DNA of 64,000 nt from a virus (IMGVR_UViG_3300025132_000023:1-64000), one strand, 5' to 3'; shown: positions 23,412 through 57,907, numbered from the stretch's first letter. The notes: generated from the sequence alone by a model not told the origin. Program-made: numbers and translations.

Positions 23412-23627
23412 CTAGTTACTATAAATATATCCTTCTGCTACGTTTTTTAATCCTTCCATCATATTAGGCTTACCTTTATTTTCTTTAATGTATCTCATTA
23501 CTATTGAATCCAAAGTTGCTACTTCTCCTTGCCCTTCATAGCCCTGTGCTGCATCCCACAAATGTTGAAACTTTCTTTTAAAGTCGTTGTAAAGTTGTGC
23601 TTCATTTTTTAATATTATATCCCACAT
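23412..23627 (-). CDS. Small protein with N-terminal W-x-x-ILK tag
   Basis: Starts MWDIILKN. Confidence 0.6.
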   Translation of the reverse strand: MWDIILKNEAQLYNDFKRKFQHLWDAAQGYEGQGEVATLDSIVMRYIKENKGKPNMMEGLKNVAEGYIYSN

Positions 23628-24295
23628 TAGTAATCCTCAATCATTGTTGCTACGCCACGATAAACCATTTCTGAATCTGATTTTGCACTTACTATATATT
23701 TGTATGTTGGTATTCCTTTTTCATTTAGTTTATTCATTCCGTCTTTAAATGCGTCAAATATATGATGTTGTTGAATGTCTTTAAATTGATATGTATCTTT
23801 CCATAAGTCAAATTTGTTTGCCCATATTCCTACTGCTTTTGGATAATCTTTATCTGATTTTTTGTATTTCTTATTTACCATATCCCAATAAGGAGCGCAT
23901 ATTGTATCAACTAAAAATGTCCAGCACAATTGTTGTTCTATATCAAAGTGTTTTGTTAAATGTCTATCGTCAATCATAAAGATAATATATTCTACCTTTC
24001 TTTTTCTCATATCATATAGCCATTCATTCCAATATGTTGTTTCGCCTCCTATGTCTGATGTTTTGATTGTATGTTGGTCACCGTCAATTTTAATTGTTTT
24101 TCTCATTGCTCTTTCTCGACCAACGGTTCTTCTTTTAATTTCCGGCACATCTCCTCTTGTTCTTAATTGGTGGTGTAATGTTGTTTTTCCAACTTGTGTT
24201 GCGCCATATACTCCAACTGCGTGCGGATTTATTTTCTTCCAAAGTAGTCCTAACTGTTCTATACAGATGATTACGAATCCCGTCATTACCGACAT
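23627..24295 (-). CDS. Small Ras/Arf-like GTPase
   Basis: G1 GATQVGKT, G2 T (RRTVG), G3 DIGG, G4 NKFD, G5 SAK; hydrophobic N-terminal helix. Confidence 0.85.
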   Translation of the reverse strand: MSVMTGFVIICIEQLGLLWKKINPHAVGVYGATQVGKTTLHHQLRTRGDVPEIKRRTVGRERAMRKTIKIDGDQHTIKTSDIGGETTYWNEWLYDMRKRKVEYIIFMIDDRHLTKHFDIEQQLCWTFLVDTICAPYWDMVNKKYKKSDKDYPKAVGIWANKFDLWKDTYQFKDIQQHHIFDAFKDGMNKLNEKGIPTYKYIVSAKSDSEMVYRGVATMIEDY

Positions 24296-24303
24296 TCAAT
24301 CAC

Positions 24304-24522
24304 CTAGAAATGAAATATTGAAGTTAACCCTCCCCAAGCAGAACTAAAGATATTTATACCAAAGGAAGGCAATGCATGGCCTATGCAAAAACTACATACA
24401 GAAGCGATGAACCCCCAAAAATAAAATCTTGCTCTTAGAAACCAAACATCGGCTGAATGCGCTCTTTGCATATCGTATGCTAAAGCAGTTTCATCCATTC
24501 CAAATGCTATGGCTTCTAACAT
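24304..24522 (-). CDS. Small membrane protein
   Basis: Hydrophobic segment FYFWGFIASVCSFCIGHAL and an amphipathic tail. Confidence 0.6.
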   Translation of the reverse strand: MLEAIAFGMDETALAYDMQRAHSADVWFLRARFYFWGFIASVCSFCIGHALPSFGINIFSSAWGGLTSIFHF

Positions 24523-24526
24523 TTAA

Positions 24527-24928
24527 TCACTCAACCTGTGCTAAGAAAGAAGGAGATACCGTTTGTGGTTCCTCTGCCTTTTGTGCTAGGTTGTTTATAG
24601 GAACCCTGTTCCAAGAATTATTAAACTGTTGAAGACTTTGGCGAACCTTTTCTCTTTGCTGTTCATCCCTAGCCTTTCTGTTCCAATAAGCAGCAATTCT
24701 TCTATCTAATAGAGTCATCTCTATATAATCATTTAAGGCAAGGTCAAAGACCGCCTTCATTACAAGTATTCCACCAATAGTCATTAGCGAAAATACTACT
24801 GCGTGTGCATAGTGTGAAAAGGCAAGCAAATTGCCATATTCAGCATAAAAGAAAACATTTATGCCACTAATGCAACCAACGAATAATATCGTCATTACAA
24901 GTTTTGTGTCTTTTTCTAATGCGGGCAT
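24527..24928 (-). CDS. Two-TM membrane protein with a coiled-coil tail
   Basis: Two hydrophobic helices followed by a charged helical C-terminus. Confidence 0.65.
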   Translation of the reverse strand: MPALEKDTKLVMTILFVGCISGINVFFYAEYGNLLAFSHYAHAVVFSLMTIGGILVMKAVFDLALNDYIEMTLLDRRIAAYWNRKARDEQQREKVRQSLQQFNNSWNRVPINNLAQKAEEPQTVSPSFLAQVE

Positions 24929-24932
24929 CTAA

Positions 24933-25726: not shown

Positions 25727-27151
25727 TCACGCACTACTTAGGTTGGTTATCTTACCTTGTCCCTTAAAGAAGGAACAACCAGTCTCTGCAATCGTGCGGT
25801 ACATAGCCTGATTGCCGAGTTTTGCAACACCGAATGGGTTGCCGTGGTCAATACCATCCTCAAAGTATTGGGTTGGCTTCATAACAGATAGCCACAGGTG
25901 GTCTGTGTCTAGTATAAGCATATCACTTAGGTCTGTTGCAGCAGCCGTCTTTGTGGTAGAAGGCATATCCTTGCAAGGTATGATGGGTATGTCGAAGTAA
26001 GTAGCGACCCTAAAGCCGACTTCTGACCCCTTTACACCTCTAACACCATTATGGGTAGGGATAATCTCCTTTCTGTCCATAAATCGCTCTTGGGACTGTA
26101 GTAAGTCACCAATGTGCTGAATGGTGTCATATCCTGTTAGGATAACCTTTGGGCTTCCTCCAGCCTCTCTAATGTTCCTTAACGCCTTGTTAAGGATTGT
26201 TAGAGTTAATGGCCTAGTAGCAGAGTAATCTCCACCATAGTCCACATAACTGTCAATAAAGCCACCATCACCAGAAACGGTGATTGCTCCATTAGCCCCA
26301 GAAGAAGTTCCGGGGTTTCTTGCAGTATTACCGTATAACGTGTAAACCTGTGGTTCTGCTCCTGTTGAAGCATCGGTCTTACCATCATGTAGCATATCCT
26401 CGTTATACATCTCACCAATCTCAGCCTTTGAAGAAACTATCTTCATTAAAGAAGTGTAGTTTAGTCCAACGTTTTGTTCTGCATAAGACTTTCCACCTAC
26501 GTCATACTGTTCAAGAGGCAATAGTAGCATTGCATTCTGAACTTCAGCATGGTGCTTACCCATGTCTTCACGGATTAGAGCGCGTATGTCTCCAACACCG
26601 TCATCAATCTTTGCCATCTCAAGAGCCAATTCTGAGAACTCAAACAAATGAGCCACAGTCTTTGGGCTGGTCTTAAGTTGTGCATAGGTTGGTGTAATCG
26701 CAGAAATGGTTCCGATTGTTGTGTCAGAATCAGCATTAATTGGCGCGTTTTCACCGTATGCTCCTAGCATATCTGCTCTTAGGCTATCTGCACCCTTTGC
26801 GACAGTATTGCTAGTATCAAACGCTCCTGAGTTGAACTTGTTGTTACCGCCACCGGCTGCTCTCTTCTCTAGCACTCTCCATCCAGAAGCCGTATATGGC
26901 CTCTTTGGAAGCATTGCCAAAGCATTACATTCTTGGTTTATCATTGACCATACTTTCTTACCGTATGCAATGTTATATAGGGCTGATACTGCCGTTGGGC
27001 CACCGCCGGTTAAACCGCCTAATGAACCATCGTGGGCTGAACCTAGTCCACCGACAACACCTGCTGCCTTAAGCAGCGAATTTCCCTGACCGCCCCTAAT
27101 TCCATAGGTTGCGGCTTCCAAATCTCTCATTGACTTAATATATCCACTCAT
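25727..27151 (-). CDS. Major capsid protein (HK97 fold)
   Basis: Follows the protease; YGKKVWSMINQE..., PKTVAHLFEFSE, PKVILTGYDT, VATYFDIPIIP, QGKITNL; elevated GC and strong RBS. Confidence 0.9.
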   Translation of the reverse strand: MSGYIKSMRDLEAATYGIRGGQGNSLLKAAGVVGGLGSAHDGSLGGLTGGGPTAVSALYNIAYGKKVWSMINQECNALAMLPKRPYTASGWRVLEKRAAGGGNNKFNSGAFDTSNTVAKGADSLRADMLGAYGENAPINADSDTTIGTISAITPTYAQLKTSPKTVAHLFEFSELALEMAKIDDGVGDIRALIREDMGKHHAEVQNAMLLLPLEQYDVGGKSYAEQNVGLNYTSLMKIVSSKAEIGEMYNEDMLHDGKTDASTGAEPQVYTLYGNTARNPGTSSGANGAITVSGDGGFIDSYVDYGGDYSATRPLTLTILNKALRNIREAGGSPKVILTGYDTIQHIGDLLQSQERFMDRKEIIPTHNGVRGVKGSEVGFRVATYFDIPIIPCKDMPSTTKTAAATDLSDMLILDTDHLWLSVMKPTQYFEDGIDHGNPFGVAKLGNQAMYRTIAETGCSFFKGQGKITNLSSA

Positions 27152-27162: not shown

Positions 27163-28398
27163 TTAGTTTTCAAACTCCGAAATGAAGTTGTGAATCTCTC
27201 CCCAAGACATTTCAGAAACATCTGGAACATCAATGGTCTGGGTTTGAGCCTTAACAATCTCATCAGACTGAGCAGTTAAAGACTTTCTAAGAAGAGAGAA
27301 CTCTTCCTTAAGTGCTTCAACTTCATTCTTTGCATCATACTCGTTTCGGGCAACAGAAGCCTTTCTTACGTCTTGCTCCTTTACGAATCTCTCCTCAAAG
27401 CGGGACTTTAGAGAGTCATAAGCCATCTTCTCTAACTGTTCTGCTTTGAAAGCCTCGTATGCCTTCTCTACATTCTCGGTGCTAAGGTCTAGTGTTGAGA
27501 AGTCTTCGTTAGTCCACTCCTTGTATAACTGTCCCATTTGTGCGCCTTGTGGGTGTTTCTTTGCAGTTGAATCATGGTCAGGTAACCTGCCATCCTCAAC
27601 AAAGCCTTCAGGCCCCGTTTTGCCCTTAGCATAATTATCGAAGTCTGAGTGTTCTACGTCAGAATCCTCGGACTCGTCATCAAAGTCCGTTGCTTCCTTT
27701 TCACCGTCATACTCATCTTCGCTTCCTTCGGAGTATTCAACGTCCATAGATTCTTCGTCCATATTGACGTCATCTACAGGCATTTCTTCTCCTTCTTCCT
27801 TTTTGAGGTTGTTAACTTCTGCCATAAGGCCGTTAAGTTCCTCAAGTGCTTTTTCCAATCTCTCAGTCATGTCACTCTTCTCCTCCTTTAATATGTCAAA
27901 CTTTGCTTCTGGGTTTATTCCTTTCTCACAAATTGTTACTTCATGGAGTTCTAACTTATCTATTTCATTATACTGGCCCAAGTCTTCGCTTGTTTTTTGC
28001 CTCTTTGATAATGCTTGTCCACCTATACTGAATGAACGTAGGGTTCCTTTTCTAATCCCTCTTTGAATTTCTTTTGCTTTTTCTATGTCATCTCTTAGTT
28101 TAATAACAACATAAAAGCCTACATCGTCTACTTGTGTTTGGTGAAGATTTCCGTTTTTATCTCTATACTTCTCTATTACATCCCCGACTTGAACATTTGA
28201 ATGATTTGACATTACGTTTCTATATTTTGGGGTTGTCATATATTTGTTTACTGCTTCTTCTAATGCTTTCAATGTAATTAAATCATTTTGTTTATCTACT
28301 ATTTCTATTGAAGCGTATCCACCAATAACTAAATCATCTGATTTTAATATCCTAAAGTTTCCTTCTGTATCCGACTTAAGCAGTTGGGCTTCCGACAC
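27163..28398 (-). CDS. Prohead protease fused to an acidic coiled-coil scaffold
   Basis: IGGYASIEIVDKQNDLI, HSNVQVG, LRSFSIGG, LHEVTICEKGINPEA match HK97-type protease motifs; acidic helical C-half. Confidence 0.9.
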   Translation of the reverse strand: MSEAQLLKSDTEGNFRILKSDDLVIGGYASIEIVDKQNDLITLKALEEAVNKYMTTPKYRNVMSNHSNVQVGDVIEKYRDKNGNLHQTQVDDVGFYVVIKLRDDIEKAKEIQRGIRKGTLRSFSIGGQALSKRQKTSEDLGQYNEIDKLELHEVTICEKGINPEAKFDILKEEKSDMTERLEKALEELNGLMAEVNNLKKEEGEEMPVDDVNMDEESMDVEYSEGSEDEYDGEKEATDFDDESEDSDVEHSDFDNYAKGKTGPEGFVEDGRLPDHDSTAKKHPQGAQMGQLYKEWTNEDFSTLDLSTENVEKAYEAFKAEQLEKMAYDSLKSRFEERFVKEQDVRKASVARNEYDAKNEVEALKEEFSLLRKSLTAQSDEIVKAQTQTIDVPDVSEMSWGEIHNFISEFEN

Positions 28399-30959: not shown

Positions 30960-31196
30960 TTATCCCTCAAACTCAGTTACCTTTGTTTTTTGTTCATCCA
31001 TTCCTTTTACATCTGGAACAGACTCAGCCTTTGGTTTCTTAATCTTAACCGTTTCACCGTCTTGGTTCTCTATCTCGGTAACCTGAGAAGTATCGCCATA
31101 AGCAACAACAAGGTCTTTAGCCTTCTTTGCTACCTTAGTCATTAACTCTTCCAACTTTTCTTCTTTTGTTACCTTTACAGGAAGACCGTCATACAT
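30960..31196 (-). CDS. Hypothetical charged protein
   Basis: ORF in the operon, coupled to its neighbours. Confidence 0.55.
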   Translation of the reverse strand: MYDGLPVKVTKEEKLEELMTKVAKKAKDLVVAYGDTSQVTEIENQDGETVKIKKPKAESVPDVKGMDEQKTKVTEFEG

Positions 31197-31444
31197 TAGT
31201 TAGCACCTTCCATTCTTGATACCATTGCATTAATATCTGCCCAATCCATTTTGGCAATATCATCAACAGTCGTTACTCCCGAACCACTTGTAGGTACGGG
31301 GGTATTTGCGACAACATATCCTGATTTCATCAGTAGGTTATCTTTATTGTAAACGGCCTTTTCTAAGTCGTTTACCTTACTCACTAACTCCTTCATAAGA
31401 AGAAGCATTTCACTATCTGTGTTTTCTTCACTCATCTTTTTCAT
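31196..31444 (-). CDS. Small scaffold-like protein
   Basis: Coiled coil; C-terminal DDIAKMDWADINAMV resembles the protease/scaffold C-terminus DVSEMSWGEIHNFI. Confidence 0.55.
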   Translation of the reverse strand: MKKMSEENTDSEMLLLMKELVSKVNDLEKAVYNKDNLLMKSGYVVANTPVPTSGSGVTTVDDIAKMDWADINAMVSRMEGAN

Positions 31445-31763
31445 CTCCTAAATCACCTTTACTCTTTGGGTAGATTATTCCCTTTAGTTGGCGATATAGA
31501 ATCTCATAATCTTTTCTAAGTTCAGATGCAGCCGCGACCAAAGAAAGGTTTGTTTCTTCAATCTTCTCCATCTTCTTCTTATCTGACTTTTCTACATCAA
31601 GTGATTTTATTTCATCCAATAAATCACCTAATCGGGTAAAGTCTTGACCCATATATTCAGTTGGTTGAACAGACTGACAAAGTTTCTTAATTTTCTTCTT
31701 TTGTTTTTTGTCAATCTTTTCTAACAACGGACTGTCTTCTTTCAATATAACATTTTCCCACAT
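31428..31763 (-). CDS. Helical protein with N-terminal W-tag
   Basis: Starts MWENVILKE. Confidence 0.6.
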   Translation of the reverse strand: MWENVILKEDSPLLEKIDKKQKKKIKKLCQSVQPTEYMGQDFTRLGDLLDEIKSLDVEKSDKKKMEKIEETNLSLVAAASELRKDYEILYRQLKGIIYPKSKGDLGDEKDE

Positions 31764-47897: not shown

Positions 47898-48239
47898 CTA
47901 ATAATATGTTTCTGCTTGTCTTCTACCTTTGCGCGGCTGTGAACAAGCGGGGGCAGTTTTACTTCCTTTTTCTTCTACACAAATAGACCAAGATTGTTGA
48001 TTCCATTCTTGATATTCTTTAATATTTTGTCCACGCCTTCCTATGATTAACCCTGCTGCGCCGGGTTTTGTTATTATTCTTATCTTTTTCATCATTCTAT
48101 CTACAGTTATGCTAATTAGGTGTTTTGCCATCTTCTTTCTCTCAAAGAAACTCCACAAATTACTCCTAATCCTTTTATCTCCTGAAGGCCTATTTGACCT
48201 TGGACTTCTTGTTTTTAATAATTCAAACCATTCTTCCAT
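47898..48239 (-). CDS. KH-domain RNA-binding protein with W-tag
   Basis: IRIITKPGAAGLIIGRRGQNIKE carries the KH GxxG loop; starts MEEWFELLKT. Confidence 0.7.
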   Translation of the reverse strand: MEEWFELLKTRSPRSNRPSGDKRIRSNLWSFFERKKMAKHLISITVDRMMKKIRIITKPGAAGLIIGRRGQNIKEYQEWNQQSWSICVEEKGSKTAPACSQPRKGRRQAETYY

Positions 48240-48243: not shown

Positions 48244-48540
48244 TCACCTCTCCTCTTGTCTTAACTTATGTTGCCATGAGGAATCAAAAAATTGAGCATC
48301 TGTATCGCTCTTAGGGTCACTAACAAAACTTGGCTTTTTCATTTTAGGTAATTTATCTTGAACCATTTTAAGTCTATACAATACTACAAATCTATTACAC
48401 TCATCACAAACTCTGCCATCACATAAAGGCTTACCATTGTTCCCAAATCCCTCATAGGGTTTACCACATAAAGCACAAATCTTTTCATCTTCCATATCTT
48501 CTGGTTGTCTAACCGTCTTAAGTGCTTTATCCCAACTCAT
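48244..48540 (-). CDS. Zinc-finger protein with W-tag
   Basis: CALC...GFGNN...CDEC; starts MSWDKALKT. Confidence 0.65.
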   Translation of the reverse strand: MSWDKALKTVRQPEDMEDEKICALCGKPYEGFGNNGKPLCDGRVCDECNRFVVLYRLKMVQDKLPKMKKPSFVSDPKSDTDAQFFDSSWQHKLRQEER

Positions 48541-48541: not shown

Positions 48542-49312
48542 TTATTCTTCCTCTAAAATGTCTCTTAATATAACTTCTGTATCTAATAGAAATTTACTGT
48601 CTTTTGGCCCAACTAATGTGCTGGCTGTAATAAAAGCAAGACCTCTAAGAACAGTATCTATATGATATTTCATTTTATCTGTTACTTTGGCATCAGCAGG
48701 TAATTTCTTTCTAGGAACCCTTGCCCATTCTTTACCGTCTTTCCTTTTATTCGCCTCTTGTTCTTTTATATATTCTGGTGTTCCCCACCTATGCTCATCA
48801 GGATGATAAAAGTATGCCATTTCATCTTCTTTGGCTAATATCTCTTCCATTGATTTCATTACTGCACCACCACGAAGTTTCTTCTGTTTAATGCGCCTAG
48901 TATCTCCTTCTTCATTTTTAACATAATCACAAATTGTATTATCATTTGTTAACTTAACCCACATTTCTGGAAAACTATCCATTTGAGTTCCATGATTTCT
49001 TAACCATACTTCTTTACAACTATCGCAAACATTCACATTTTTAGTTGCGTGCCTCCAAGAAGCAGGATGAACCTCCATGCCTTCTCTTTCTAATGCCTCT
49101 CTAGTAACTTTAGGCGCACATTCTCTACATACTCTTGGAGTTGGTTGTCCTTCTAATCCTAAGTTTTTCCACTCCCTAGCAATTTGTTGTCTTCTTTTGT
49201 ATGGGATGTTATAGATATATTCACCATTAACTTTAGGAACTTCTGCACCTACTCCTCTATATTGTCGCTTGCATTTTACGCAAGTGGCTTTTAATATGTT
49301 TTCCCAACTCAT
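48542..49312 (-). CDS. Multi-zinc-finger protein with W-tag
   Basis: Start moved to MSWENILKA (ATGA overlap); CVKC, CREC, CDSC. Confidence 0.6.
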   Translation of the reverse strand: MSWENILKATCVKCKRQYRGVGAEVPKVNGEYIYNIPYKRRQQIAREWKNLGLEGQPTPRVCRECAPKVTREALEREGMEVHPASWRHATKNVNVCDSCKEVWLRNHGTQMDSFPEMWVKLTNDNTICDYVKNEEGDTRRIKQKKLRGGAVMKSMEEILAKEDEMAYFYHPDEHRWGTPEYIKEQEANKRKDGKEWARVPRKKLPADAKVTDKMKYHIDTVLRGLAFITASTLVGPKDSKFLLDTEVILRDILEEE

Positions 49313-49965
49313 TGCATCTTCTCCTCCATCTTTTGTTTTACATCTAACCAAACTTGTGGATGATTCTGTGCTAATACTTCTTGAACAATCTGCATTTGCG
49401 CTACTATGATTGTATCCTGTCTCTTGTGAACTAACTTGCCCTTGAACTCCATTAGATACCGTAGGCTTTCCCTAATTTCTTTTGCCAACTTGGTCAAACT
49501 ATCAATATATTTTGGATGCAATTCGTCCTCTTCAAAGAGAACATCAATCTTTTGCTCCAAACGGGTTATGTTCTTCGATAGACTGTCTATCTCGTCTACC
49601 TCTTTCACGGCTATAATACTTGCCGCCGCCTTCTGAACCAATGGCTGAAGATGTTTCCTCATGTGCCTCTTTACCTGTTCTTCTGAACATTTCAAAAGCA
49701 TAGACACGCCTTTGGGTGTAACAGCACCACTATGTAATTGCTGTTCTAATTCACCCCTTAACTCATGTATGCAGAAACTACACCGAGGATTAGAAGCATC
49801 TACATAATCCCCCATATGATTTCTATGATGCCTTGCAGTTGTTCCGCTAGGCCAATCCATTCTGTTATCTAAATCATCGGCAGTAATTGCCATTGTCTCT
49901 AATTGTGCTTCTAAGTCATCACGTTCTTCGTGATTACATAATTTACATCTTCTTCGCTTTACCAT
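49309..49965 (-). CDS. Terminase small subunit candidate / duplicated Zn-HTH DNA-binding protein
   Basis: Two repeats of CxxC..H--HTH--RHxRxH followed by a coiled coil. Confidence 0.45.
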   Translation of the reverse strand: MVKRRRCKLCNHEERDDLEAQLETMAITADDLDNRMDWPSGTTARHHRNHMGDYVDASNPRCSFCIHELRGELEQQLHSGAVTPKGVSMLLKCSEEQVKRHMRKHLQPLVQKAAASIIAVKEVDEIDSLSKNITRLEQKIDVLFEEDELHPKYIDSLTKLAKEIRESLRYLMEFKGKLVHKRQDTIIVAQMQIVQEVLAQNHPQVWLDVKQKMEEKMQ

Positions 49966-51146
49966 GCTAATACACTCTCCCAACTTTTCTTTACCTTAGT
50001 GTTCTTTTTCTTAGGTGCAGACTTTTTCTTTGGAACTTCCTTTTTCTCTACCAGACCCGGCATAAATACTGTTTCTTTTCCGGGGGTTCTCTTACAATGC
50101 CCAGATAGAATCGCAAGATTTTTCATCTGCCTTCTTGTAATATTAAGTGAAATACCCTTTACCTCACCAATGAATTTATCATAGTCTGCTATTCTCTTAA
50201 CAGTCTTACTGTCCTTTAAACCTATGTCAATAAAAGTAAATGCTTTTAATCTGCCATGTGCATGAGAATCCCTAAACATACCTGTTGTTTTATTCATTCC
50301 CCAACCGGGATTATTTTTATCTCCAATCATTTCAGCAACATAGTCTTTAACTGCGTCTATTTGCATTAGTTCTGCCGCAGTAGTTCCTTTACCTGTATCT
50401 ACAATCTTAAGTTTAAGATGTTCAAAACTAACATCTTCTTCTAGTGCTTTGACTACTTCACTTAAAACATGAAGCAATCCGTTTTGGATTAACACCTTCT
50501 TGCGAATAAGCATCTTTTTAACTTCATACAAATCTCCACTACCTGCAAAGAACGCTTGCCACATTGGAGGCTCTGCTTGGTTTTCAGCAGTATTATACCA
50601 ATCTGAAGAAACTGCTTTTATAGGCTCCTCTTTACCGCCAAATATTTTAGCCTTTAGATTTCTATATTTAACATAGTCATCTGTTCTGTAATGTCCATAG
50701 ACTTCAACAACATCTTCTTCCTCATCATAGTCTGCATTACTTCTATTGACTTCAGCCCAATTAGGAATAGTAAATATAATGTTTCTAGGGTCATCTTTTG
50801 TGTCTCGCATATTTTTTAATTTTACATATACTTTAGTGACTTCCTTTTTATCTTGTTCTGTTATAGCCTCATTCATCTCTAACATATCATCTAGTAATTT
50901 AATTATGTTATGTCCACCGTCAGGTATTTCGTTTTCCTTATTCCTAGATACTTCCAACTCACCATGACTTGCAACTAAATCGAGTAATGTTTTATCAGAA
51001 GTTATACCTAAAGCATCTCCTTTCGCAGACTCACATTCAGTCTTCCAACCTTCATATGCATCTTTAAACTTAGAAGAATCAAATGTTTGGGTTCCTTGAG
51101 AGCCATCAATATTAACTACTGTTGAGGACTTCTTCTCTTTAACCAT
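49959..51146 (-). CDS. Hypothetical protein
   Basis: ~395-aa ORF with GGAGG RBS before ATG 51146; Lys-rich tail. Confidence 0.6.
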   Translation of the reverse strand: MVKEKKSSTVVNIDGSQGTQTFDSSKFKDAYEGWKTECESAKGDALGITSDKTLLDLVASHGELEVSRNKENEIPDGGHNIIKLLDDMLEMNEAITEQDKKEVTKVYVKLKNMRDTKDDPRNIIFTIPNWAEVNRSNADYDEEEDVVEVYGHYRTDDYVKYRNLKAKIFGGKEEPIKAVSSDWYNTAENQAEPPMWQAFFAGSGDLYEVKKMLIRKKVLIQNGLLHVLSEVVKALEEDVSFEHLKLKIVDTGKGTTAAELMQIDAVKDYVAEMIGDKNNPGWGMNKTTGMFRDSHAHGRLKAFTFIDIGLKDSKTVKRIADYDKFIGEVKGISLNITRRQMKNLAILSGHCKRTPGKETVFMPGLVEKKEVPKKKSAPKKKNTKVKKSWESVLAW

Positions 51147-51147: not shown

Positions 51148-51369
51148 TTATTCCTCCTTACGATTATCCTCATGTGTTGACATTAAACCTGCCGTCCCTG
51201 CCACAGCAGCACCCGCCAACGGTATTACCTTTTCCATATCGCATTTACAATCTCCGCCGCAACTACAATCTTTCTTTTTTCCACCATAGGATATATTGAA
51301 TAAAGCATCAGTTCCTCCACCTGATGATAATATTGCTCCACCTTCTTTAATTATATTCCACCACTTCAT
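51148..51369 (-). CDS. Small protein with W-tag and Cys cluster
   Basis: MKWWNIIKE; CSCGGDCKC. Confidence 0.55.
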   Translation of the reverse strand: MKWWNIIKEGGAILSSGGGTDALFNISYGGKKKDCSCGGDCKCDMEKVIPLAGAAVAGTAGLMSTHEDNRKEE

Positions 51370-51581
51370 AATCTGTTCACTTCCGTTATTAAATCTTCAT
51401 AGTATTCGCTATCTGGATTGTGTAGTATCCAAACTTCTTTTTCCTTTTCTTTAATTAGAACTCCTAGCGGGTCGGTTCTTTGAAACCCGAATGTATTTAC
51501 AAAGTCTGTAGGAATATCGAAGTTTTTAGTAAGAGTCTGCGAGCGAATTTTATAGTCGCTTTTGAATAAATTAAACCACAT
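51366..51581 (-). CDS. Small protein with W-tag
   Basis: MWFNLFKS. Confidence 0.55.
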   Translation of the reverse strand: MWFNLFKSDYKIRSQTLTKNFDIPTDFVNTFGFQRTDPLGVLIKEKEKEVWILHNPDSEYYEDLITEVNRL

Positions 51582-51582: not shown

Positions 51583-52242
51583 TTAATTATACTCCTTTAT
51601 TGCTGTTTTAATTTTAGAATATAATGGGTGCTTTGTATAAAAATTAATTTTATATTTATCTCCTTCTACTTCTGGGGGAATGGGTTTAAAAACGTTTTCA
51701 GGATTATCACTCTTTATTTCAATAATCATCACATTAGTAGGTTCTTGTTTTACTTCTTCTTTAAAGCCCATAGCCTCATGGTATGTTTTTATATGTTCAT
51801 CATTAAAAAATTCAAATCCATCTTTTCCTACAAAAGGTATTTTTGGCGCACCCATCCATTCTAAGTTTCTATTCATTCTTTCAACTGCATCATCCGTCAT
51901 GTCACCTCTAACCCATTGATTCATAATTCCTTCTCCCGCAGATTTACCGTGCTTTCCATGTGTCTCTAGGAAAAAAGGAATGACTTTTGGTTTGAAAAAA
52001 TCTGCCTTTATTTCTTTAGGAGAAACATCATCTTTAGTTCGTTGTAACATTTTGTCTGATAAAGTGTCAAATTTAATCCAATTAAAAAGAACCCCTCCTG
52101 CCTTCTTATCTTCCTTACTTACTGCTACAATAAATTTAGTTAAATCCCCCCAACGATTCGGCTTCCCATGTCCTCCACTAAGAAACTTATTAATTTGTTT
52201 TTTTGTGAACTCCTGTTTTTCAATTAACTCAAACCAATTCAT
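51583..52242 (-). CDS. Hypothetical protein with W-tag
   Basis: MNWFELIEKQ. Confidence 0.6.
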   Translation of the reverse strand: MNWFELIEKQEFTKKQINKFLSGGHGKPNRWGDLTKFIVAVSKEDKKAGGVLFNWIKFDTLSDKMLQRTKDDVSPKEIKADFFKPKVIPFFLETHGKHGKSAGEGIMNQWVRGDMTDDAVERMNRNLEWMGAPKIPFVGKDGFEFFNDEHIKTYHEAMGFKEEVKQEPTNVMIIEIKSDNPENVFKPIPPEVEGDKYKINFYTKHPLYSKIKTAIKEYN

Positions 52243-52959
52243 TCAATCCCATCCCCTTTTTGCTGGCTTTCTTCTGGGTATCTTTTTTCTTGGACTTACA
52301 ACAGCATCTTTCCAATCTCTATGTTCTTCCCTATACCTTTCAGAAGGTTTCATCTCTCCTTCAGTTATATGTCCTACTCCTACCTGATGTGGTTTAAGGT
52401 CGTTAGTGTCCTTTAGTGGAGAATAAAGGTCTACACAATCTTGCCATTGGTCTATAATGTCATCCATACTTAGCCTGCCACTTTCATCTTTTTGTGTCAT
52501 CGCATATAAATCAACACCGAAAAGTTTTGCACTCTTTTCTTCAAGATTTTCGCTTTCAAACAAATTACTAATGGTTACACAGTTCATGTTTCTAATAGTG
52601 TTGGTAATTTTCTTTATGTTAGCAGCAGTATTGTCAGCCATAGTAGACTCTAATACATACTCTGTTAACATTTCTTTAACCTGCTCACAACAAAACTCAT
52701 CATTTTCTGCTACCATAACATCTTCTTCCATTGTTACAGGATACACTTGGCTTATCTCGTCTTCAGCCATTCCTCCTTCTTTGGTGTATGGCTGGTCTTC
52801 ATCGTCTTCTGGTGCTGAAGGCTGACCTCCTCTATTTGGGCCACCACCGCCACCGCCTCCTCCGCGCCTATTATCTAGTTCGGTGTCCCTTTCAACCTTA
52901 GTCTTCCATTTACCATCAGGCCCCTTAGTTCTGACCTTTATTATATCTTCCCACTTCAT
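52243..52959 (-). CDS. W-tag protein with a CCE..C..W..C domain
   Basis: MKWEDIIKV; poly-Gly linker; CCEQVKE...MNC...IIDQWQDC. Confidence 0.6.
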   Translation of the reverse strand: MKWEDIIKVRTKGPDGKWKTKVERDTELDNRRGGGGGGGGPNRGGQPSAPEDDEDQPYTKEGGMAEDEISQVYPVTMEEDVMVAENDEFCCEQVKEMLTEYVLESTMADNTAANIKKITNTIRNMNCVTISNLFESENLEEKSAKLFGVDLYAMTQKDESGRLSMDDIIDQWQDCVDLYSPLKDTNDLKPHQVGVGHITEGEMKPSERYREEHRDWKDAVVSPRKKIPRRKPAKRGWD

Positions 52960-53267
52960 CTTAAATCCTCCATTCCGGTACAGTTCTCATAAATAAACAT
53001 TGTCTCATTTACAATTTTTGATAGTGAATCTAAATAAATTCTTCTGTAATTGTTTGCTTTTGGTTCTGGATTTGCGTGATTAAGTGCTTCTTGCAACTTT
53101 GAAAAGTATTTAACAAAATCTCCATCTCTTGCTTGCACATAATCAAAAACTTCTTTCTCTCTTCTAAATTCAGTATATTTTTGAAACAACGGGCCTACCT
53201 GTTTATTGAAATAATCCATTGCTGGTTTAACACATCTATCTGATTTAAGTATTGTTTCCCAGTTCAT
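52956..53267 (-). CDS. Small protein with W-tag
   Basis: MNWETILKS. Confidence 0.6.
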   Translation of the reverse strand: MNWETILKSDRCVKPAMDYFNKQVGPLFQKYTEFRREKEVFDYVQARDGDFVKYFSKLQEALNHANPEPKANNYRRIYLDSLSKIVNETMFIYENCTGMEDLR

Positions 53268-53280: not shown

Positions 53281-53520
53281 TTAGTATTTGTTGTATTCCT
53301 GTTCCTCTCTTAATATTTGTCTTATTGTTTTCTTAAACCTGTCAGACTTTACTCCACCAACTTCTAAATATGCGCTCATTAATCCCCGAATTAAATCCTT
53401 TGTTTTTGGTGAATCCTTCTCTAAATAAAACTTATAATAAAAGCGTTCTTTGTTATTAAACAATTCTGTTACTAATTTTTCTTCTACTTGTGCTGTAAGA
53501 TTTCTAAACTGTCTTGCCAT
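53281..53520 (-). CDS. Hypothetical protein
   Basis: 79-aa ORF in the operon. Confidence 0.5.
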   Translation of the reverse strand: MARQFRNLTAQVEEKLVTELFNNKERFYYKFYLEKDSPKTKDLIRGLMSAYLEVGGVKSDRFKKTIRQILREEQEYNKY

Positions 53521-53882
53521 TATATCACCCGATAAAATGTCTTTTTTCCGTTCCTCCCAACACCGCGTTCCTGCTTAGTTGTAATATCCATACTCTCTAA
53601 TCTCTTTCTAAGGAAAGAAGTTAAGTTTTCATCACTATCTTTTAGACCCGGATTCTGTTCCCTTAATGATTTAACAATGTCATCAATTGATGACCACCCT
53701 TCTGCAATGCTGAAATAACTAGTAATTTGTTTTTCTAAAGAATCGTAAAATTCATTGCTTCTCTTTCCATGTTTCTTCCTAAGATAATCTAAGTGTTTCA
53801 TATCGTTAGGCTGTGCATACTTTTCAGCAAGCATTTCAAACTCCTTCATTTCTGAAGACTTAACTAATTCAAACCAAGTCAT
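53520..53882 (-). CDS. Winged-helix-like protein with W-tag
   Basis: Start moved to MTWFELVKS; SIDDIVKSL...LRKRLESMDI...KTFYRV resembles a wHTH. Confidence 0.55.
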   Translation of the reverse strand: MTWFELVKSSEMKEFEMLAEKYAQPNDMKHLDYLRKKHGKRSNEFYDSLEKQITSYFSIAEGWSSIDDIVKSLREQNPGLKDSDENLTSFLRKRLESMDITTKQERGVGRNGKKTFYRVI

Positions 53883-54364
53883 GTTTTCTGCATCCTTTCT
53901 GCACACTCTCGACAAAACGTCAAATCAATTTGCTTACCCTTAGCACTCTTACCATAGTCAATAGTGAATCTATTACGCGCACCCAACATTCTACCACACA
54001 TAGCACATTTATTCTTAGGCATAGTTTTAGTGGCCTTTGGTTTAATCGCTTCCATTGCTCCTCCTCCACCACCCTCTAACTTTACTTCTCCTTCTTTAGC
54101 CTTTCTTGAACCTAATCTTGTTTGCATTTCAGGTGTAAAGTCTTTCTGCCTTTGAAGAACTTCTTTATGTCTGTCTGCAATTGGAGTATTTGCTCTTACT
54201 GCGTCCATCCAATTTCCTTCTTCATCTTGCATTATTCCTCTACCCATTACTCGCGTTTTTTTGTTTGGGTCAACTTCTTCTCGCTTCTCACCAGAGAATA
54301 CATTAGGAGGTTGAATCTTCTTTTTCTTCCTTGGACGATTCTTATCAATATTATACCAGTTCAT
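53879..54364 (-). CDS. Zinc-finger protein with W-tag
   Basis: Start moved to MNWYNIDK; CAMC...CREC. Confidence 0.55.
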   Translation of the reverse strand: MNWYNIDKNRPRKKKKIQPPNVFSGEKREEVDPNKKTRVMGRGIMQDEEGNWMDAVRANTPIADRHKEVLQRQKDFTPEMQTRLGSRKAKEGEVKLEGGGGGAMEAIKPKATKTMPKNKCAMCGRMLGARNRFTIDYGKSAKGKQIDLTFCRECAERMQKT

Positions 54365-54668
54365 TTGCACCACCCATTTCTGCACATTTATCCCATGCAT
54401 CTACTATTTGTTGCATTCCGGGCATTCCCATGTCAGCAAACATTTCTAGTTCTTGTCTTAAATTACTACAATTATAGTTCTTCCATTCAGAACTTTGTAA
54501 TACTCCTCTTCCAATTTCTCCATATTCTCTTAATTGGTTTTCTGCTGCTTCTCTAGCGTGTTCACAACAAAGGTCATTGTTCTCATGTGGATTATTCTTA
54601 GGTGGCCCATCTAAAATCATTCGTGCTGCTTGAGCATTATCAAGTTTTAATATTTGAATCCAAGTCAC
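54351..54668 (-). CDS. W-tag protein with a CCE..C..W..C domain
   Basis: MTWIQILKL; CCEHARE...YNC...IVDAWDKC. Confidence 0.6.
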   Translation of the reverse strand: MTWIQILKLDNAQAARMILDGPPKNNPHENNDLCCEHAREAAENQLREYGEIGRGVLQSSEWKNYNCSNLRQELEMFADMGMPGMQQIVDAWDKCAEMGGANELV

Positions 54669-55036
54669 TTCTCATCACCTTTCTTTTTTTGTTCCTCATC
54701 CCACTTTCTCTTATCTGACCTATCTAATCGCTTGCCCTTTTTACTTGGGTCTTTACCAATATACACTTGATTAGTATGTCCATCCATTCCGCTAAATCTA
54801 TGGTCATCACACCATTGTGCGCCACAAGTAACACACGCCCACTCTGCTAAATTATGACATCCTCTTCCCATAGGTTGCCAAGAAGAACAAGCGTCTTTTG
54901 GGAAACTAGAAATATCAAAATCTTTCATGGTATCTTTAGCATCTTTCTTAGAAGTAAAACCTTTAAACTTCTTTTTCTTTGGCCCATCGCCTTCTTTCTT
55001 AGGTATATTAAATTTAACTATATTTTGCCATGACAT
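54665..55036 (-). CDS. B-box-like zinc-finger protein with W-tag
   Basis: Start moved to MSWQNIVKF (GGAGG RBS); C...CHNLAEWACVTCGAQWCDDH. Confidence 0.6.
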   Translation of the reverse strand: MSWQNIVKFNIPKKEGDGPKKKKFKGFTSKKDAKDTMKDFDISSFPKDACSSWQPMGRGCHNLAEWACVTCGAQWCDDHRFSGMDGHTNQVYIGKDPSKKGKRLDRSDKRKWDEEQKKKGDEK

Positions 55037-55040
55037 AATA

Positions 55041-56102
55041 TTACCTCCAATCTGCTTCTTTATCAAACGCACTTTTTTGTGATGCTGTAAGTGTTACTCC
55101 AGTATTAATAACATAGCCAATCTTGTATATTATTTTATCCCCTTTTCTAATGTTTAGAGTATTAACATACATATGATGTTTATCATTACGAGAAGTTCTC
55201 CAAGCATAATATCTAACAATATGATACTTTTCATCAGTTGAAGATTTTGCACCTACGAACCTTTGCCTGCTTGTGCCTGTCTTTTTCTTCTTTCTTTCAT
55301 AGTCGTCTTTAATATCTCTAAGAATTTCTGCTTCCCTCTCTCTAACTAGACCTATTAATTTGTTATAATCATTATCTGCCCATCTAAATCCTTCTTTGAA
55401 ATCAAAAGGAGGTACTCCGCTCTGCCATAAAGAACGTCTTTTCCACCTGCTTTCTACAAACTTCGTAAAATCAGGGTCAGCAGAACTTGTTTCTGATACT
55501 ACGTCTTCTGCGGGCTTTAATGACCTACCCATTTCATCATCAAAAGGAGAAGGTTTAGCAGAGTCTGCTTTCCAAGGATTACCGTTTTTATCCAATGGGC
55601 CTAAAACTTCCTTTTTACCCATAGGAGTTACCTTAATCTTCCTTAATGCCATACAAGCAATCTCCTCTGGTATACTATCTGTATAAGTTCTATTAGTCAT
55701 ATACTTATTAAAGTTTGGAATATTGCTAATATTATGTTCTCTTCGCATCTCATGAAGCACTTCAGATTCTAAACTCTTTGTTTTAGTGTTTACCTTATCA
55801 AGCAAGTTCTTTAATTCGTCCCTACAAGAATCGTCCGTGTAAACATCTAATTTGTCATCAATCATAGTTTCGTCCATAACATCTCGTTGAACTTCATCAC
55901 TATCATCTAAAACATCATATTCGTGAAGTCTAGTTTTACCCCTGCCCCTGTTAACATCACTTTGATACGCAGAAGCCCTTCTATCTTCCCAACCTATACC
56001 GTGTTCTCTAGCATAGGCTTCTGTAGCGTCTTCGCGCTCCTTTCTTTGACGCGCTTCTTCAGGCGTGAGTTTACGAGCCTTTAGGATGTCTCCCCAACTC
56101 AT
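55041..56102 (-). CDS. Hypothetical protein with W-tag
   Basis: MSWGDILKA. Confidence 0.65.
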   Translation of the reverse strand: MSWGDILKARKLTPEEARQRKEREDATEAYAREHGIGWEDRRASAYQSDVNRGRGKTRLHEYDVLDDSDEVQRDVMDETMIDDKLDVYTDDSCRDELKNLLDKVNTKTKSLESEVLHEMRREHNISNIPNFNKYMTNRTYTDSIPEEIACMALRKIKVTPMGKKEVLGPLDKNGNPWKADSAKPSPFDDEMGRSLKPAEDVVSETSSADPDFTKFVESRWKRRSLWQSGVPPFDFKEGFRWADNDYNKLIGLVREREAEILRDIKDDYERKKKKTGTSRQRFVGAKSSTDEKYHIVRYYAWRTSRNDKHHMYVNTLNIRKGDKIIYKIGYVINTGVTLTASQKSAFDKEADWR

Positions 56103-56176
56103 TCTTCTGCCTCGATTAATGTCTTCATAAAGTCCTTGAAAAATTTACATTCTCCGTTTGGATGTCTTGCTGCCAT
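56099..56176 (-). CDS. 25-aa leader micro-protein, first gene of the long operon
   Basis: GGAGGAG RBS; MAARHPNGECKFFKDFMKTLIEAEE; ATGA overlap with the next gene; TTAAATAA TATA-like box near 56207-56215. Confidence 0.55.
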   Translation of the reverse strand: MAARHPNGECKFFKDFMKTLIEAEE

Positions 56177-56679
56177 AATACTCCTCCTAATTGTCGCCCG
56201 GTTTAACTTATTTAACCATTAAAACTGAAAATTTGGCCCGTCATTTATTTGCCACTTGCGATTTTTCTTTTGCTCTTTTTATCCTATTCCCAGAATAAAA
56301 ATAGTTTATTGTTTATTTAACTAGATAAAAACGTATTAATCTCTTGTATCTCTTTACGCGACCCGCGATTTATTAATAGTTAATTATGCACCTTTACCTT
56401 TAGTGCGCTCTCTCTATATGACCCATGTGCGCCTACTATTTAGAATGTGACTTGACACAATTAACATTTTAAGCCTGTTATAACTAAACAAATCATTAGA
56501 ATATTAAAAGAAAAAAATCGACCCAAAGCATATGGTCATGTAAAATACATAGACCCGTCAGGAACTTCTTCCAACAACGATAGTCGTATTCAGCGTTCAA
56601 TGGAGCATAATAGTGATAGCACTTATTATTGGCCTCATTCTCTGAATACTCATCGTTTGTTTACATCGTTCCATATGGT

Positions 56680-57616
56680 TGTCTATTAGGACGTATTACG
56701 GTATTACAAGGAGTAAACGCCAGCACTTGCGCGGTGTTAATAGAACTCTATTCATAAATAGAGCCTAAGCGGTAGTTCGTAGTTAACACAGCGGCAGGGT
56801 GCTTGGTCGTTTACTTCCTTGTAATACCCAAATGTCCATATAAGACATTGCCCGATAAATGGGGATATATGCCGTTACACTAACATGAAATGTATTCACT
56901 CCGTTGCATTGGAGAGCAAGAGTAAATTCCGGGACGTTTAGACTCTTGCTTTAGCAATCCCTGCACATTACTCTGCTCTCCAATCCTCTACGTTTACATA
57001 CATTTCATTACACTACCATATGGTTACTTAGTCATGGAGTAAGGCAAGAATGTGCGTATTCAGTCAGGCTCCTAAGAGTCTGAGTCTAAATGTGGTGAAT
57101 ACCGCATTCTTGCCTTACTCCGAGCAAGATAATCCCATATCGGGTTCTTTTGATTTATGGTCTGTCTCAAACAGTTCAGATGCTAATCATAAACTTTTAG
57201 CAGAGACAGTACCGCTTAGGCTGAGTCTTACGACTCCCTTATGCACGCTAACTACCTCCGGCTGTTATCGTACCGCTAAAAGATTATGTTAACATCATCA
57301 CAACTCACCAGACCTTTTCTTTTTTAATTAACAACCATATGGTTTAGTAAGTGGTTGGTTTAAGGCGGGAACCTATGTAGAATGTTAAACACGGCTGTTC
57401 TTAAGAACGAGCCTAAGCGGTAGTGTTGGAAATTCTACCGGGTTCCTCGCCTTAAGCACAACCCTACATAACCAGACATCGGGTAACATTCGGTTAATCC
57501 CAACATTCACTCCGTAGTATCTCCTGAACGGAACCTGTATTGACATTTAGATTAACGCTTAAGCGTTCATACTTGGTTCCCTTCAGGTTATCTCACTTCG
57601 TTCATTTAACCTCACT
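56680..57616. repeat. Three double-hairpin non-coding units (U1-U3)
   Basis: Long imperfect stems, e.g. GGTATTACAAGG 56700/CCTTGTAATACC 56817 and GGAGTAAGGCAAGAATG/CATTCTTGCCTTACTCC at about 57036-57121, each with the conserved loop motif. Confidence 0.85.
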
Positions 57617-57664
57617 ACCATATGGTAGGCTGTGCTTTGCTAACAGAATGCCCGATAACGGGAC

Positions 57665-57907
57665 TTACTTCATTGTTACGATTTTACAGCAATTACCCAT
57701 TTTTACTCTTAAATCGCCTAATTCCATTCCGCAGTTATTACATATCTCAATCATTATTTTTACATCCATTAAACCAGCACCAATAGAACGAGGAATCACA
57801 TTCTTTACAATCAGGAGGGAGAGTATCTCTCATTCCTCTCCCCCCTTTTTACCAATAGCATATATTCTACAAAACTCTGCATGAGCCTTTAACAAGTTCC
57901 AACTCAT
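57665..57907 (-). CDS. Three coupled micro-ORFs (57830-57907, 25 aa; 57747-57833, 28 aa; 57665-57754, 29 aa)
   Basis: MSWNLLKAHAEFCRIYAIGKKGGEE; MRDTLPPDCKECDSSFYWCWFNGCKNND; MIEICNNCGMELGDLRVKMGNCCKIVTMK; each start overlaps the previous stop. Confidence 0.55.

What the first reader, a model, noticed from the sequence alone, without database searches (positions are those of the whole stretch)
23412..57907. About 25 unrelated proteins share an N-terminal M-x-W-x-x-(I/L)-(L/V/I)-K tag: a probable capsid-targeting signal
Seen in sequence: MSWGDILKA, MSWQNIVKF, MTWIQILKL, MTWFELVKS, MNWETILKS, MKWEDIIKV, MKWWNIIKE, MSWENILKA, MSWDKALKT, MEEWFELLKT, MKWEDILKQ, MAWENLLKA, MDWFEIVKA, MNWLLVLKK, MWDIILKN and others. 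The bodies differ (zinc fingers, KH, GNAT, wHTH, large helical proteins). The protease/scaffold ends in MSWGEIHNFI and the 31196 protein in MDWADINAMV, the same amphipathic pattern. LK-S/A/E also recurs in the protease (LLKSD, ILKSD, ILKEE) and near the MCP N-terminus (LLKAA). Established knowledge: T4 internal proteins use a ~10-aa N-terminal capsid-targeting sequence removed by the prohead protease, and the HK97 protease cleaves after Lys. Inference: a portable tag that mimics the scaffold's coat-binding helix, loads many effectors into the head, and is clipped after LK.
Basis: partly seen in the sequence, partly recalled or inferred. Interest (0 to 1): 0.85.

Follow-up and report, generated by a model that had tools for sequence, protein, structure and literature searches.

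The report
Portable peptide tag on magrovirus proteins
An abundant ocean virus of archaea puts the same eight-residue peptide on about 25 otherwise unrelated proteins, and the peptide copies the conserved tail of the capsid scaffold, so it is probably a label for loading proteins into the virus head, though nothing has been measured.

Summary
The window is the first 64 kb of a complete 96-kb magrovirus, a tailed virus of marine archaea (group B by its split PolB).

About 24 minus-strand genes between 56102 and 23412 start with M-[STNK]-W-x-[DNE]-[IVL]-[LIV]-K:
- 17 strict tags among 126 genes, against 0.06 in shuffles.
- None among 46 replication genes.
- Codons vary, the protein bodies are unrelated, and the tagged genes turn over fast while keeping the tag.
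- Eight other genomes of this lineage carry 8-25 tags each.

New here:
- A conserved ~400-aa protein (49959-51146) carries the tag at its C-terminus, and two orthologues also carry it at the N-terminus. The tag therefore works at either end.
- A 6-position profile of tags from other genomes ranks two head-protein C-terminal motifs first and second of 29,199 internal peptides. These are the protease-scaffold and an 82-aa head protein.

Capsid targeting by mimicking the scaffold tail is the leading reading (about 0.4) but is unproven. Clipping after L-K is not supported.

A second lineage has a different tag but the same scaffold tail. This weakens strict mimicry.

The scan noted this tag before on other magrovirus DNA (e1-3288946, e1-3288954, e1-5769680, e1-5908241). 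The magrovirus papers I read do not mention it.

The parts
55041..56102 (-). tagged gene, 353 aa, starts MSWGDILK
   Evidence: no Pfam or PHROG family above cut-off
54665..55036 (-). tagged gene, 123 aa, starts MSWQNIVK
54351..54668 (-). tagged gene, 105 aa, GTG start, TWIQILK
53879..54364 (-). probable tagged gene, 161 aa, starts MNWYNIDK (near variant)
53520..53882 (-). tagged gene, 120 aa, starts MTWFELVK; orthologues in 3 other genomes keep the tag
52956..53267 (-). tagged gene, 103 aa, starts MNWETILK
52243..52959 (-). tagged gene, 238 aa, starts MKWEDIIK
51583..52242 (-). near-variant tag, 219 aa, starts MNWFELIEK
51366..51581 (-). tagged gene, 71 aa, starts MWFNLFK
51148..51369 (-). tagged gene, 73 aa, starts MKWWNIIK
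49959..51146 (-). conserved 395-aa protein with the tag at its C-terminus (ends KKSWESVLAW)
   Evidence: W389 is invariant and L393 nearly invariant in 24 homologues. Two orthologues also carry an N-terminal tag. AlphaFold2 pLDDT 81; the tail is disordered with a short helix.
48542..49312 (-). tagged gene, 256 aa, starts MSWENILK, three CxxC
48244..48540 (-). tagged gene, 98 aa, starts MSWDKALK
47898..48239 (-). tagged gene, 113 aa, starts MEEWFELLK, KH domain
46717..47889 (-). loose tag, 390 aa, MNATAAWFEVAK
46379..46720 (-). tagged gene, 113 aa, starts MKWEDILK
46197..46376 (-). near-variant tag, 59 aa, MSWKKALLK
45806..46207 (-). tagged gene, 133 aa, MANEWTNILK
44940..45797 (-). tagged gene, 285 aa, MDKREIWEKVLK
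42836..44935 (-). tagged gene, 699 aa, GTG start, AWENLLK; the tag is kept in orthologues of 24-27% identity
40124..40282 (-). tagged gene, 52 aa, MNWFNIVK
39201..39782 (-). tagged gene, 193 aa, TTG start, DWFEIVK
34044..34799 (-). tagged gene inside the head module, 251 aa, MNWLLVLK
31767..33821 (-). Lys-rich 684-aa head-module protein with a tag lacking W (MGEILLK); orthologues start M-x-F-L-D-x-L-L
31428..31763 (-). conserved 111-aa head-module protein, tag MWENVILK; most full-length orthologues are tagged
31196..31444 (-). 82-aa coiled-coil head protein with the C-terminal motif K-M-D-W-x-[DE]-I
   Evidence: conserved in 36 distinct orthologues and in lineage 2; profile rank 2
27163..28398 (-). 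S78 prohead protease fused to a scaffold; C-terminal motif E-M-S-W-G-E-I-H-N-F (residues 396-405); N-terminus MSEAQLLK
   Evidence: Pfam Peptidase_S78 E = 2.2e-10. Motif kept in 56 orthologues and in relatives of 30-55% identity. AlphaFold2 gives a terminal helix at 399-410. Profile rank 1.
25727..27151 (-). major capsid protein (HK97 type); conserved N-terminal 28 residues ending L-L-K, then a variable Gly-rich linker. Candidate receptor.
   Evidence: Pfam SU10_MCP
23412..23627 (-). tagged gene downstream of the MCP, 71 aa, MWDIILK

Best explanation
The peptide M-[STNK]-W-x-[DNE]-[IVL]-[LIV]-K is a portable docking tag, a short linear motif joined to the body by a flexible linker. This magrovirus lineage places it at one end of 8-25 small, fast-changing accessory proteins per genome and of several conserved head-module proteins.

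Shown here:
- It is selected as a peptide.
- It is modular and works at either terminus.
- It is confined to the transcription unit that also holds the head genes.
- Its first six positions equal the conserved C-terminal tryptophan helix of the prohead protease-scaffold and of a second small coiled-coil head protein.

Inferred: the tag binds the site inside the assembling procapsid that the scaffold tail uses, most likely on the HK97-type major capsid protein. Tagged proteins would then be enclosed in the head and delivered with the DNA.

Removal of the tag by the protease after Lys is possible for N-terminal copies. Nothing tested here requires or supports it.
For: - Enrichment and placement.
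- Synonymous and class-conserving codon variety: position 6 uses 12 or more codons, position 7 uses 12 or more, and Lys is AAA 101 / AAG 34.
- Unrelated bodies.
- Fast gene turnover with the tag kept, down to 24% body identity.
- The same tag in eight other genomes of the lineage.
- A C-terminal copy conserved in 24 homologues, with N-terminal copies in two orthologues.
- A profile built from 121 tags of other genomes scores the scaffold and 82-aa-protein motifs at 10.7 and 10.3. After a probable true start, the next internal peptide scores 3.9, among 29,199.
- The scaffold motif is kept down to 30% identity in a 1.8-billion-protein library and forms a terminal helix.
- Three consecutive head-module genes are tagged.
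- The gene array from 56102 to 25365 has no gap over 60 bp, and the first hairpin plus T-run lies after the capsid genes.
- Precedents: T4 capsid-targeting sequence (PMC3012670). 80alpha scaffold and SaPI1 CpmB share a C-terminal helix-and-hook that binds a cleft of the capsid protein (PMC5644958).
Against: - No data on virion content or binding.
- A second magrovirus lineage has the same scaffold tail (N-M-S-W-[ED]-E-V-H) but a different, longer tag (x-x-F-D-x-A-W-x-V-L-K). Tag and scaffold tail therefore do not co-vary.
- Positions 7-8 differ: L-K in tags, H-N in scaffolds.
- The tagged block lies next to the divergent control region, where early genes usually sit.
- The bodies (zinc fingers, KH) would also suit cytoplasmic take-over factors.
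Confidence: 0.42

Rival explanations
1. The tag docks its proteins to another hub, not to the capsid. Candidates are a host or viral protein such as the sliding clamp, a chaperonin, the proteasome/Cdc48 system or the portal. The likeness to the scaffold tail would then be partial convergence, or would arise because the scaffold uses that hub too.
For: - Tag and scaffold tail evolve independently between lineages.
- The tag works at either terminus, as clamp-binding and similar peptides do.
- The tagged block sits next to the control region.
- An earlier scan note, not tested here, reports a similar W-x-x-[VI]-L-K core at C-termini in a clade of probable DPANN viruses (e1-831089).
- Magroviruses encode a clamp and a clamp loader (PMC5434244; RFC-like AAA protein).
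Against: - No replication protein carries the tag (0 of 46).
- The consensus is not a PIP box: no Gln, no aromatic pair.
- The only internal copies in the proteome are in two head proteins.
- Three consecutive head-module genes are tagged.
Confidence: 0.3
2. The near-invariant Lys is an acceptor for ubiquitin-like conjugation by the virus-encoded E1/JAB set, marking the proteins for turnover or relocation.
For: - Lys is kept at position 8 or 9 in 138 of 148 N-terminal tags, and Arg never replaces it alone.
- This genome encodes a ThiF-type E1 (Pfam E = 7.6e-16) and a weak JAB match. G002 and G003 do too.
- Several tags read hydrophobic-K-x-[DE].
Against: - Four genomes of the second lineage, one of them 100% complete, carry tags but no ThiF gene.
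- Asp or Glu at +2 occurs in only 31 of 135 tags.
- C-terminal copies often have Ala, Val or Gly in place of Lys.
Confidence: 0.06
3. The tag is chiefly a propeptide removed by the S78 prohead protease after hydrophobic-hydrophobic-Lys and has no targeting role.
For: - Near-invariant Lys and a sharp end of conservation at position 8.
- Invariant L-L-K followed by a variable Gly-rich linker in the MCP of this lineage.
- N-L-L-M-K-S-G in the 82-aa protein.
Against: - The I-L-K segments of the protease are family features. The start segment recurs in many far relatives, and the Lys at the domain end is not kept in several far relatives.
- The MCP L-L-K is M-G-Y in lineage 2.
- C-terminal tags leave nothing to release.
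Confidence: 0.06
4. The tag is a nucleotide-level start-site signal, a recombination joint between gene cassettes, a membrane-binding amphipathic helix, or a remnant of paralogy.
For: - All copies lie at gene starts in a tightly packed array.
- The peptide is amphipathic.
Against: - Codons vary freely while residue classes stay.
- The tag also occurs at C-termini and inside scaffold tails.
- The bodies are unrelated.
- Eight residues with two acidic positions are too short and too specific for a membrane anchor.
Confidence: 0.04

Closest known systems
Capsid-targeting sequence of phage T4 internal proteins (IPI-III); PMC3012670
   Same: A short N-terminal peptide of about 8-10 residues shared by diverse, fast-evolving proteins. 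The genes lie beside the head genes. Proposed role: loading proteins into the procapsid.
   Different: - No sequence likeness.
- A different protease family (S78 here).
- Used on 8-25 proteins, not about four.
- Also works at C-termini.
- Resembles the scaffold tail.
- Cleavage is not supported.
- Archaeal virus.
- Nothing has been shown experimentally.
Staphylococcus phage 80alpha scaffolding protein and SaPI1 CpmB: shared C-terminal helix-and-hook (RIIK) binding the capsid protein; PMC5644958
   Same: A short terminal motif shared by the scaffold and an unrelated protein. There it is shown to bind one cleft of an HK97-fold capsid protein. Here the scaffold, an 82-aa protein, a 395-aa protein and the N-terminal tags share a tryptophan motif.
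   Different: - A different motif.
- Here mostly N-terminal, and on many cargo-like proteins rather than one size-redirecting competitor.
- Binding has not been tested.
C-terminal targeting part of the HK97 maturation protease gp4 (Duda, Oh and Hendrix 2013, J Mol Biol 425:2765; cited in PMC12749128; content from my own knowledge, paper not held)
   Same: A protease of the same Pfam family is brought into the procapsid by its C-terminal part, which can carry foreign proteins in.
   Different: HK97 has no separate cargo set using that signal. In the magrovirus the protease is fused to a long coiled-coil scaffold.
Encapsulin cargo-loading peptides (own knowledge, not tested here)
   Same: A short terminal peptide on unrelated cargo proteins binds the inner face of an HK97-fold shell. 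It can sit at either end, behind a flexible linker.
   Different: Different consensus, a cellular nanocompartment rather than a virus, and few cargo types per system.
PIP-box and other clamp-binding terminal peptides
   Same: A terminal short motif shared by many unrelated clients of one hub, at either end.
   Different: The consensus Q-x-x-[LIM]-x-x-[FY]-[FY] is not met, and the replication proteins of this virus lack the tag.

Membership tests
T4-type capsid-targeting sequence | Short N-terminal peptide shared by otherwise unrelated proteins encoded near the head genes | tested here: met
T4-type capsid-targeting sequence | Peptide removed by the prohead protease at a consensus site at its end | tested here: inconclusive
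   Lys is near-invariant in N-terminal tags. Candidate sites in the protease and MCP are not conserved across relatives, and C-terminal tags exist.
T4-type capsid-targeting sequence | Tag sufficient for encapsidation; tagged proteins present in virions | not testable with these tools
   No virion proteome and no multimer prediction were available.
T4-type capsid-targeting sequence | Sequence relation to the T4 tag | tested here: not met
   By eye the tag logo shares no positions with the T4 tag sequence quoted in earlier scan notes. The head protease here is Pfam Peptidase_S78.
Scaffold-tail mimic (80alpha SP / SaPI1 CpmB type) | Same short motif at the scaffold C-terminus and on other proteins | tested here: met
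   Profile ranks 1 and 2 of 29,199
Scaffold-tail mimic (80alpha SP / SaPI1 CpmB type) | Motif and scaffold tail change together between lineages | tested here: not met
   Lineage 2 has the same scaffold tail but a different tag.
Scaffold-tail mimic (80alpha SP / SaPI1 CpmB type) | Motif binds a cleft of the HK97-fold capsid protein | not testable with these tools
   Only single-chain prediction is offered.
PIP-box clamp-binding peptide | Q-x-x-[LIM]-x-x-[FYW]-[FYW] consensus; present on replication enzymes | tested here: not met
   Logo; 0 of 46 replication-block genes are tagged.
Ubiquitin-like acceptor motif (hydrophobic-K-x-[DE]) | Acidic residue at +2 and co-occurrence with the conjugation enzymes | tested here: not met
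   31 of 135 tags have D/E at +2. No ThiF gene in four tagged lineage-2 genomes.
Magrovirus (tailed viruses assigned to Marine Group II archaea), group B | Genome of about 100 kb; halovirus-like head module; own replication module; a ligase inside the head module; split PolB | tested here: met
   96,167 bp. MCP 23% identical to HVTV-1/HCTV-5. PolB, RFC-like ATPase and ligase. Ligase at 28441-30957. Two PolB pieces match one 814-aa PolB. Description in PMC5434244.
Magrovirus (tailed viruses assigned to Marine Group II archaea), group B | Host is a Poseidoniales archaeon | not testable with these tools
   The genome-contig scan found only two contigs in a MAG labelled Maricaulis, probably mis-binned. 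The host rests on the literature.

The most novel reading that the evidence does not exclude
The dominant archaeal viruses of the surface ocean use a peptide address code that is independent of which terminus it sits on. Two lineage-specific dialects share a W-x(1-2)-hydrophobic-L-K core. The code would load up to a fifth of their gene products, a fast-changing effector set, into the capsid for co-injection. This would be the first capsid-targeting code in an archaeal virus, and it would allow injected effectors to be read directly from metagenomes.
Probability: 0.35. Interest if true: 0.8.

Novelty: new variant of a known kind. Interest (0 to 1): 0.62.

Why it matters
Magroviruses are among the most abundant archaeal viruses in the sea. 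They have no cultured host, and most of their genes have no known function. A shared tag sorts 8-25 of these unknown genes per genome into one functional class and links them to head assembly.

If the tag is a packaging signal, three things follow:
- It predicts the injected protein set of an uncultivable virus from sequence alone.
- It extends capsid-targeting signals from T4-like phages to archaeal viruses.
- It gives a short, transferable peptide for loading foreign proteins into HK97-type shells.

If it addresses another hub, it points to an unknown central partner in the infected cell.

Tried and rejected
- **Nucleotide-level start bias:** rejected by codon variety.
- **Paralogy:** rejected by all-against-all blastp.
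- **Function of tagged proteins:** Pfam, PHROGs and the protein atlas gave only a KH domain. Only 7 homologues of the 699-aa protein were found.
- **395-aa C-tagged protein:** the AlphaFold2 model is good (pLDDT 81), but Foldseek found nothing at E <= 0.001 and VIA-align gave Z <= 6.6, the level of helical noise.
- **PDB by sequence:** nothing for the protease-scaffold or the putative clamp.
- **Expression:** no RNA holder listed; read laying was not used.
Scans with P0067, P0024 and P0019 gave a short contig or nothing.
- **Other archaeal tailed viruses:** no comparable tag in the annotated genes listed for the Methanofastidiosa virus BK063666. In halovirus HVTV-1 only the ends of 11 head-region proteins were examined and none was seen. 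The HVTV-1 protease tail keeps at most K-S-W-E.
- **Host:** the genome-contig scan found only a MAG labelled Maricaulis.
- **Ubiquitin-like acceptor idea:** tested and made unlikely.
- **Cleavage after L-K:** not supported.

Full report
**What the window is**

All long ORFs from 1 to 56102 lie on the minus strand. Pfam finds the following:
- an HK97-type major capsid protein (25727-27151, SU10_MCP);
- an S78 prohead protease (27163-28398);
- a portal (34796-36433);
- a terminase nuclease domain (37762-39201);
- a tail tube protein (16437-18059);
- an ATP-dependent DNA ligase inside the head module (28441-30957).

The capsid protein's only named relatives are haloarchaeal siphoviruses (23% identity) and a Methanofastidiosa virus.

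The window is the first 64 kb of a 96,167-bp IMG/VR record rated 100% complete. The remainder is a plus-strand replication block with PolB, an RFC-like ATPase, a second ligase and an RNR-like protein. At least 597 IMG/VR contigs encode a capsid protein related to this one, and the best 80 are 58-80% identical. The stretch occurs in many marine metagenomes.

The host assignment to Marine Group II archaea rests on that paper. My one scan of cellular genomes found only two probably mis-binned contigs.

**The observation**

My count in the window:
- 19 strict tags;
- 5 near variants;
- 2 forms without Trp;
- 3 C-terminal copies.

Statistics and distribution:
- In a non-overlapping set of 126 genes, 17 have a strict tag, against a mean of 0.06 and a maximum of 2 in 2000 shuffles.
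- The core occurs only four times internally in 29,955 residues.
- Tags mark 15 of 25 genes at 39.2-56.1 kb, 2 of 33 head/tail genes and none of 46 replication genes.

Features of the tag:
- A logo from 135 distinct tags reads M-[STNK]-W-[EFKQ]-[DNE]-[IVL]-[LIV]-K, with nothing conserved after position 8.
- Codons vary widely at positions 2 and 4-8 while residue classes are kept. Selection is therefore on the peptide.
- Lys sits at position 8 or 9 in 138 of 148 cases, and Arg never stands in for it alone.
- The bodies are unrelated by blastp. Apart from one KH domain they have no Pfam or PHROG family above threshold.
- The GNAT and wHTH labels were not reproduced.

**Spread and evolution**

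Eight other genomes or large fragments of the same lineage carry 8-25 tags each, always upstream of and co-oriented with the head genes. Their capsid proteins are 62-74% identical to this one, or their terminases about 70% identical.

Most tagged genes have no detectable orthologue between genomes at about 63% capsid-protein identity. Where an orthologue remains at 24-27% identity, the tag is still intact. This is a fast-changing accessory gene pool with a fixed label.

A second magrovirus lineage has protease 35-41% and terminase 37% identical, an unsplit PolB and genomes of 95-107 kb. It has 10-14 proteins per genome with a different, longer tag, x-x-[FM]-[DEQ]-x-A-W-x-[VIL]-L-K, once at a C-terminus.

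**Link to head assembly**

- The protease is fused to a scaffold. AlphaFold2 (pLDDT 75) gives a protease fold at 24-171, an acidic disordered linker, long helices at 307-385 and a terminal helix at 399-410.
- That helix begins with E-M-S-W-G-E-I-H-N-F. The motif is kept in 56 distinct orthologues and, as M-[SD]-W-x-[ED]-[IVL]-[HNE], in protease-scaffold proteins down to 30% identity.
- An 82-aa coiled-coil protein in the head module (31196-31444) ends in K-M-D-W-x-[DE]-I. The motif is conserved in 36 orthologues and in lineage 2.
- A six-position profile from 121 tags of other genomes, run over all 29,199 internal hexapeptides of this proteome, puts these two motifs first and second (10.7 and 10.3). 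The third is a probable true start, and the next scores 3.9.
- Three consecutive head-module genes carry N-terminal tags: 34044-34799, 31767-33821 and 31428-31763.
- The gene array from 56102 to 25365 has no gap above 60 bp. The first hairpin with a T-run follows the capsid genes, so co-transcription is plausible but inferred.

The conserved 395-aa protein at 49959-51146 has no N-terminal tag. It ends, after a Lys-rich disordered linker, in K-K-S-W-E-S-V-L-A-W. In 24 homologues the Trp is invariant and the Leu nearly so. Tails read, for example, K-M-D-W-R-T-V-L-K-G-N. In two genomes the orthologue also has an N-terminal tag. The initiator Met is therefore not needed, and at the C-terminus Lys is often Ala, Val or Gly.

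A portable docking tag is well supported. That the partner is the procapsid is the best-supported single reading, for three reasons: the tag's likeness to the scaffold tail, the tagged head-module genes, and two precedents. The precedents are the T4 capsid-targeting sequence (PMC3012670) and the 80alpha scaffold / SaPI1 CpmB pair, whose shared C-terminal motif binds a cleft of an HK97-fold capsid protein (PMC5644958).

The reading is weakened because lineage 2 keeps the same scaffold tail yet has a different tag. Earlier scan note e1-5769680 reports the same. It is also weakened because positions 7-8 differ between tags and scaffold tails.

Clipping after L-K is not supported:
- The I-L-K segment before the protease fold recurs in many far relatives.
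- The F-D-I-L-K segment is the last strand of the fold, and its Lys is not kept in several far relatives.
- The invariant L-L-K of the capsid protein aligns with M-G-Y in lineage 2.
- C-terminal tags leave nothing to release.

**Rivals**

- **Another hub (clamp, chaperone, portal).** Remains possible. However, the tag is not a PIP box and no replication protein carries it.
- **Ubiquitin-like acceptor.** The lead was the near-invariant Lys together with earlier notes on a magrovirus ubiquitin-like conjugation set. This genome does encode a ThiF-type E1 and a weak JAB match. Four tagged lineage-2 genomes have no ThiF, and only 23% of tags have an acidic residue at +2. This reading is unlikely.

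**Novelty**

The two magrovirus papers I searched for N-terminal and motif terms do not mention the tag, and a full-text search for capsid targeting in archaeal viruses found nothing relevant. The scan itself noted the same tag, the shared C-terminal tails and the lineage-2 tag on other magrovirus DNA. Those are unchecked AI notes and not independent evidence.

This report adds:
- the C-terminal copy on a conserved protein;
- the profile ranking;
- the Lys/Arg count;
- the family-wide view of the protease segments;
- the ThiF co-occurrence test.

Noticed in passing
L100:9981-10565 (genome 73981-74565, outside the window) and L100:11243-11737: A ThiF-family E1-like gene (Pfam E = 7.6e-16) and a weak Prok-JAB match lie in the replication block. 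Homologues are present in G002 and G003. The E1 is absent from four lineage-2 genomes, and no JAB homologue was found by tblastn in the two that were checked (G007, G008).
   Followed up: partly
window 28441-30957 (-): An 838-aa protein with an ATP-dependent DNA ligase domain sits between the head genes. A canonical 509-aa ligase lies in the replication block (L100:13740-15269). In lineage 2 the same position holds giant proteins of 1857-2143 aa, partly homologous (29% over 315 aa).
   Followed up: partly
window 25245-25364: A 120-bp gap after the capsid gene cluster holds a GC-rich hairpin followed by a T-run. It is the first terminator-like site downstream of 56102.
   Followed up: no
window 23627-24295 (-): A 222-aa protein has weak small-GTPase Pfam matches (Ras, Roc, MMR_HSR1, E about 1e-3). 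It is conserved at 30% identity in lineage 2 (G008 104289-105014).
   Followed up: no
L101:6702-8363 and L101:8866-9777 (genome 86702-89777): The PolB gene is in two pieces that both match one 814-aa PolB of lineage 2. The first piece has F-S-W-A-D-I about 30 residues from its end.
   Followed up: no
P0169 (homologue of 49959-51146): In one homologue the C-terminal tag is followed by 76 more residues, as if the gene read on into the next gene. In G003 a tag with a GTG-type start lies inside a 700-aa open frame (near 52776). Both suggest that tags move by small changes at gene borders.
   Followed up: no
L280, L281 (NZMJ01000101.1, NZMJ01000024.1): A MAG labelled Maricaulis sp. holds two contigs with magrovirus capsid genes (65% and 55% identity). 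This is probably a binning error.
   Followed up: no
window 49309-49965 (-): An untagged 218-aa protein with a Cys-rich N-terminus is the only gene of the tagged block that has a detectable homologue in lineage 2 (32% identity, G008 101204-101983).
   Followed up: no
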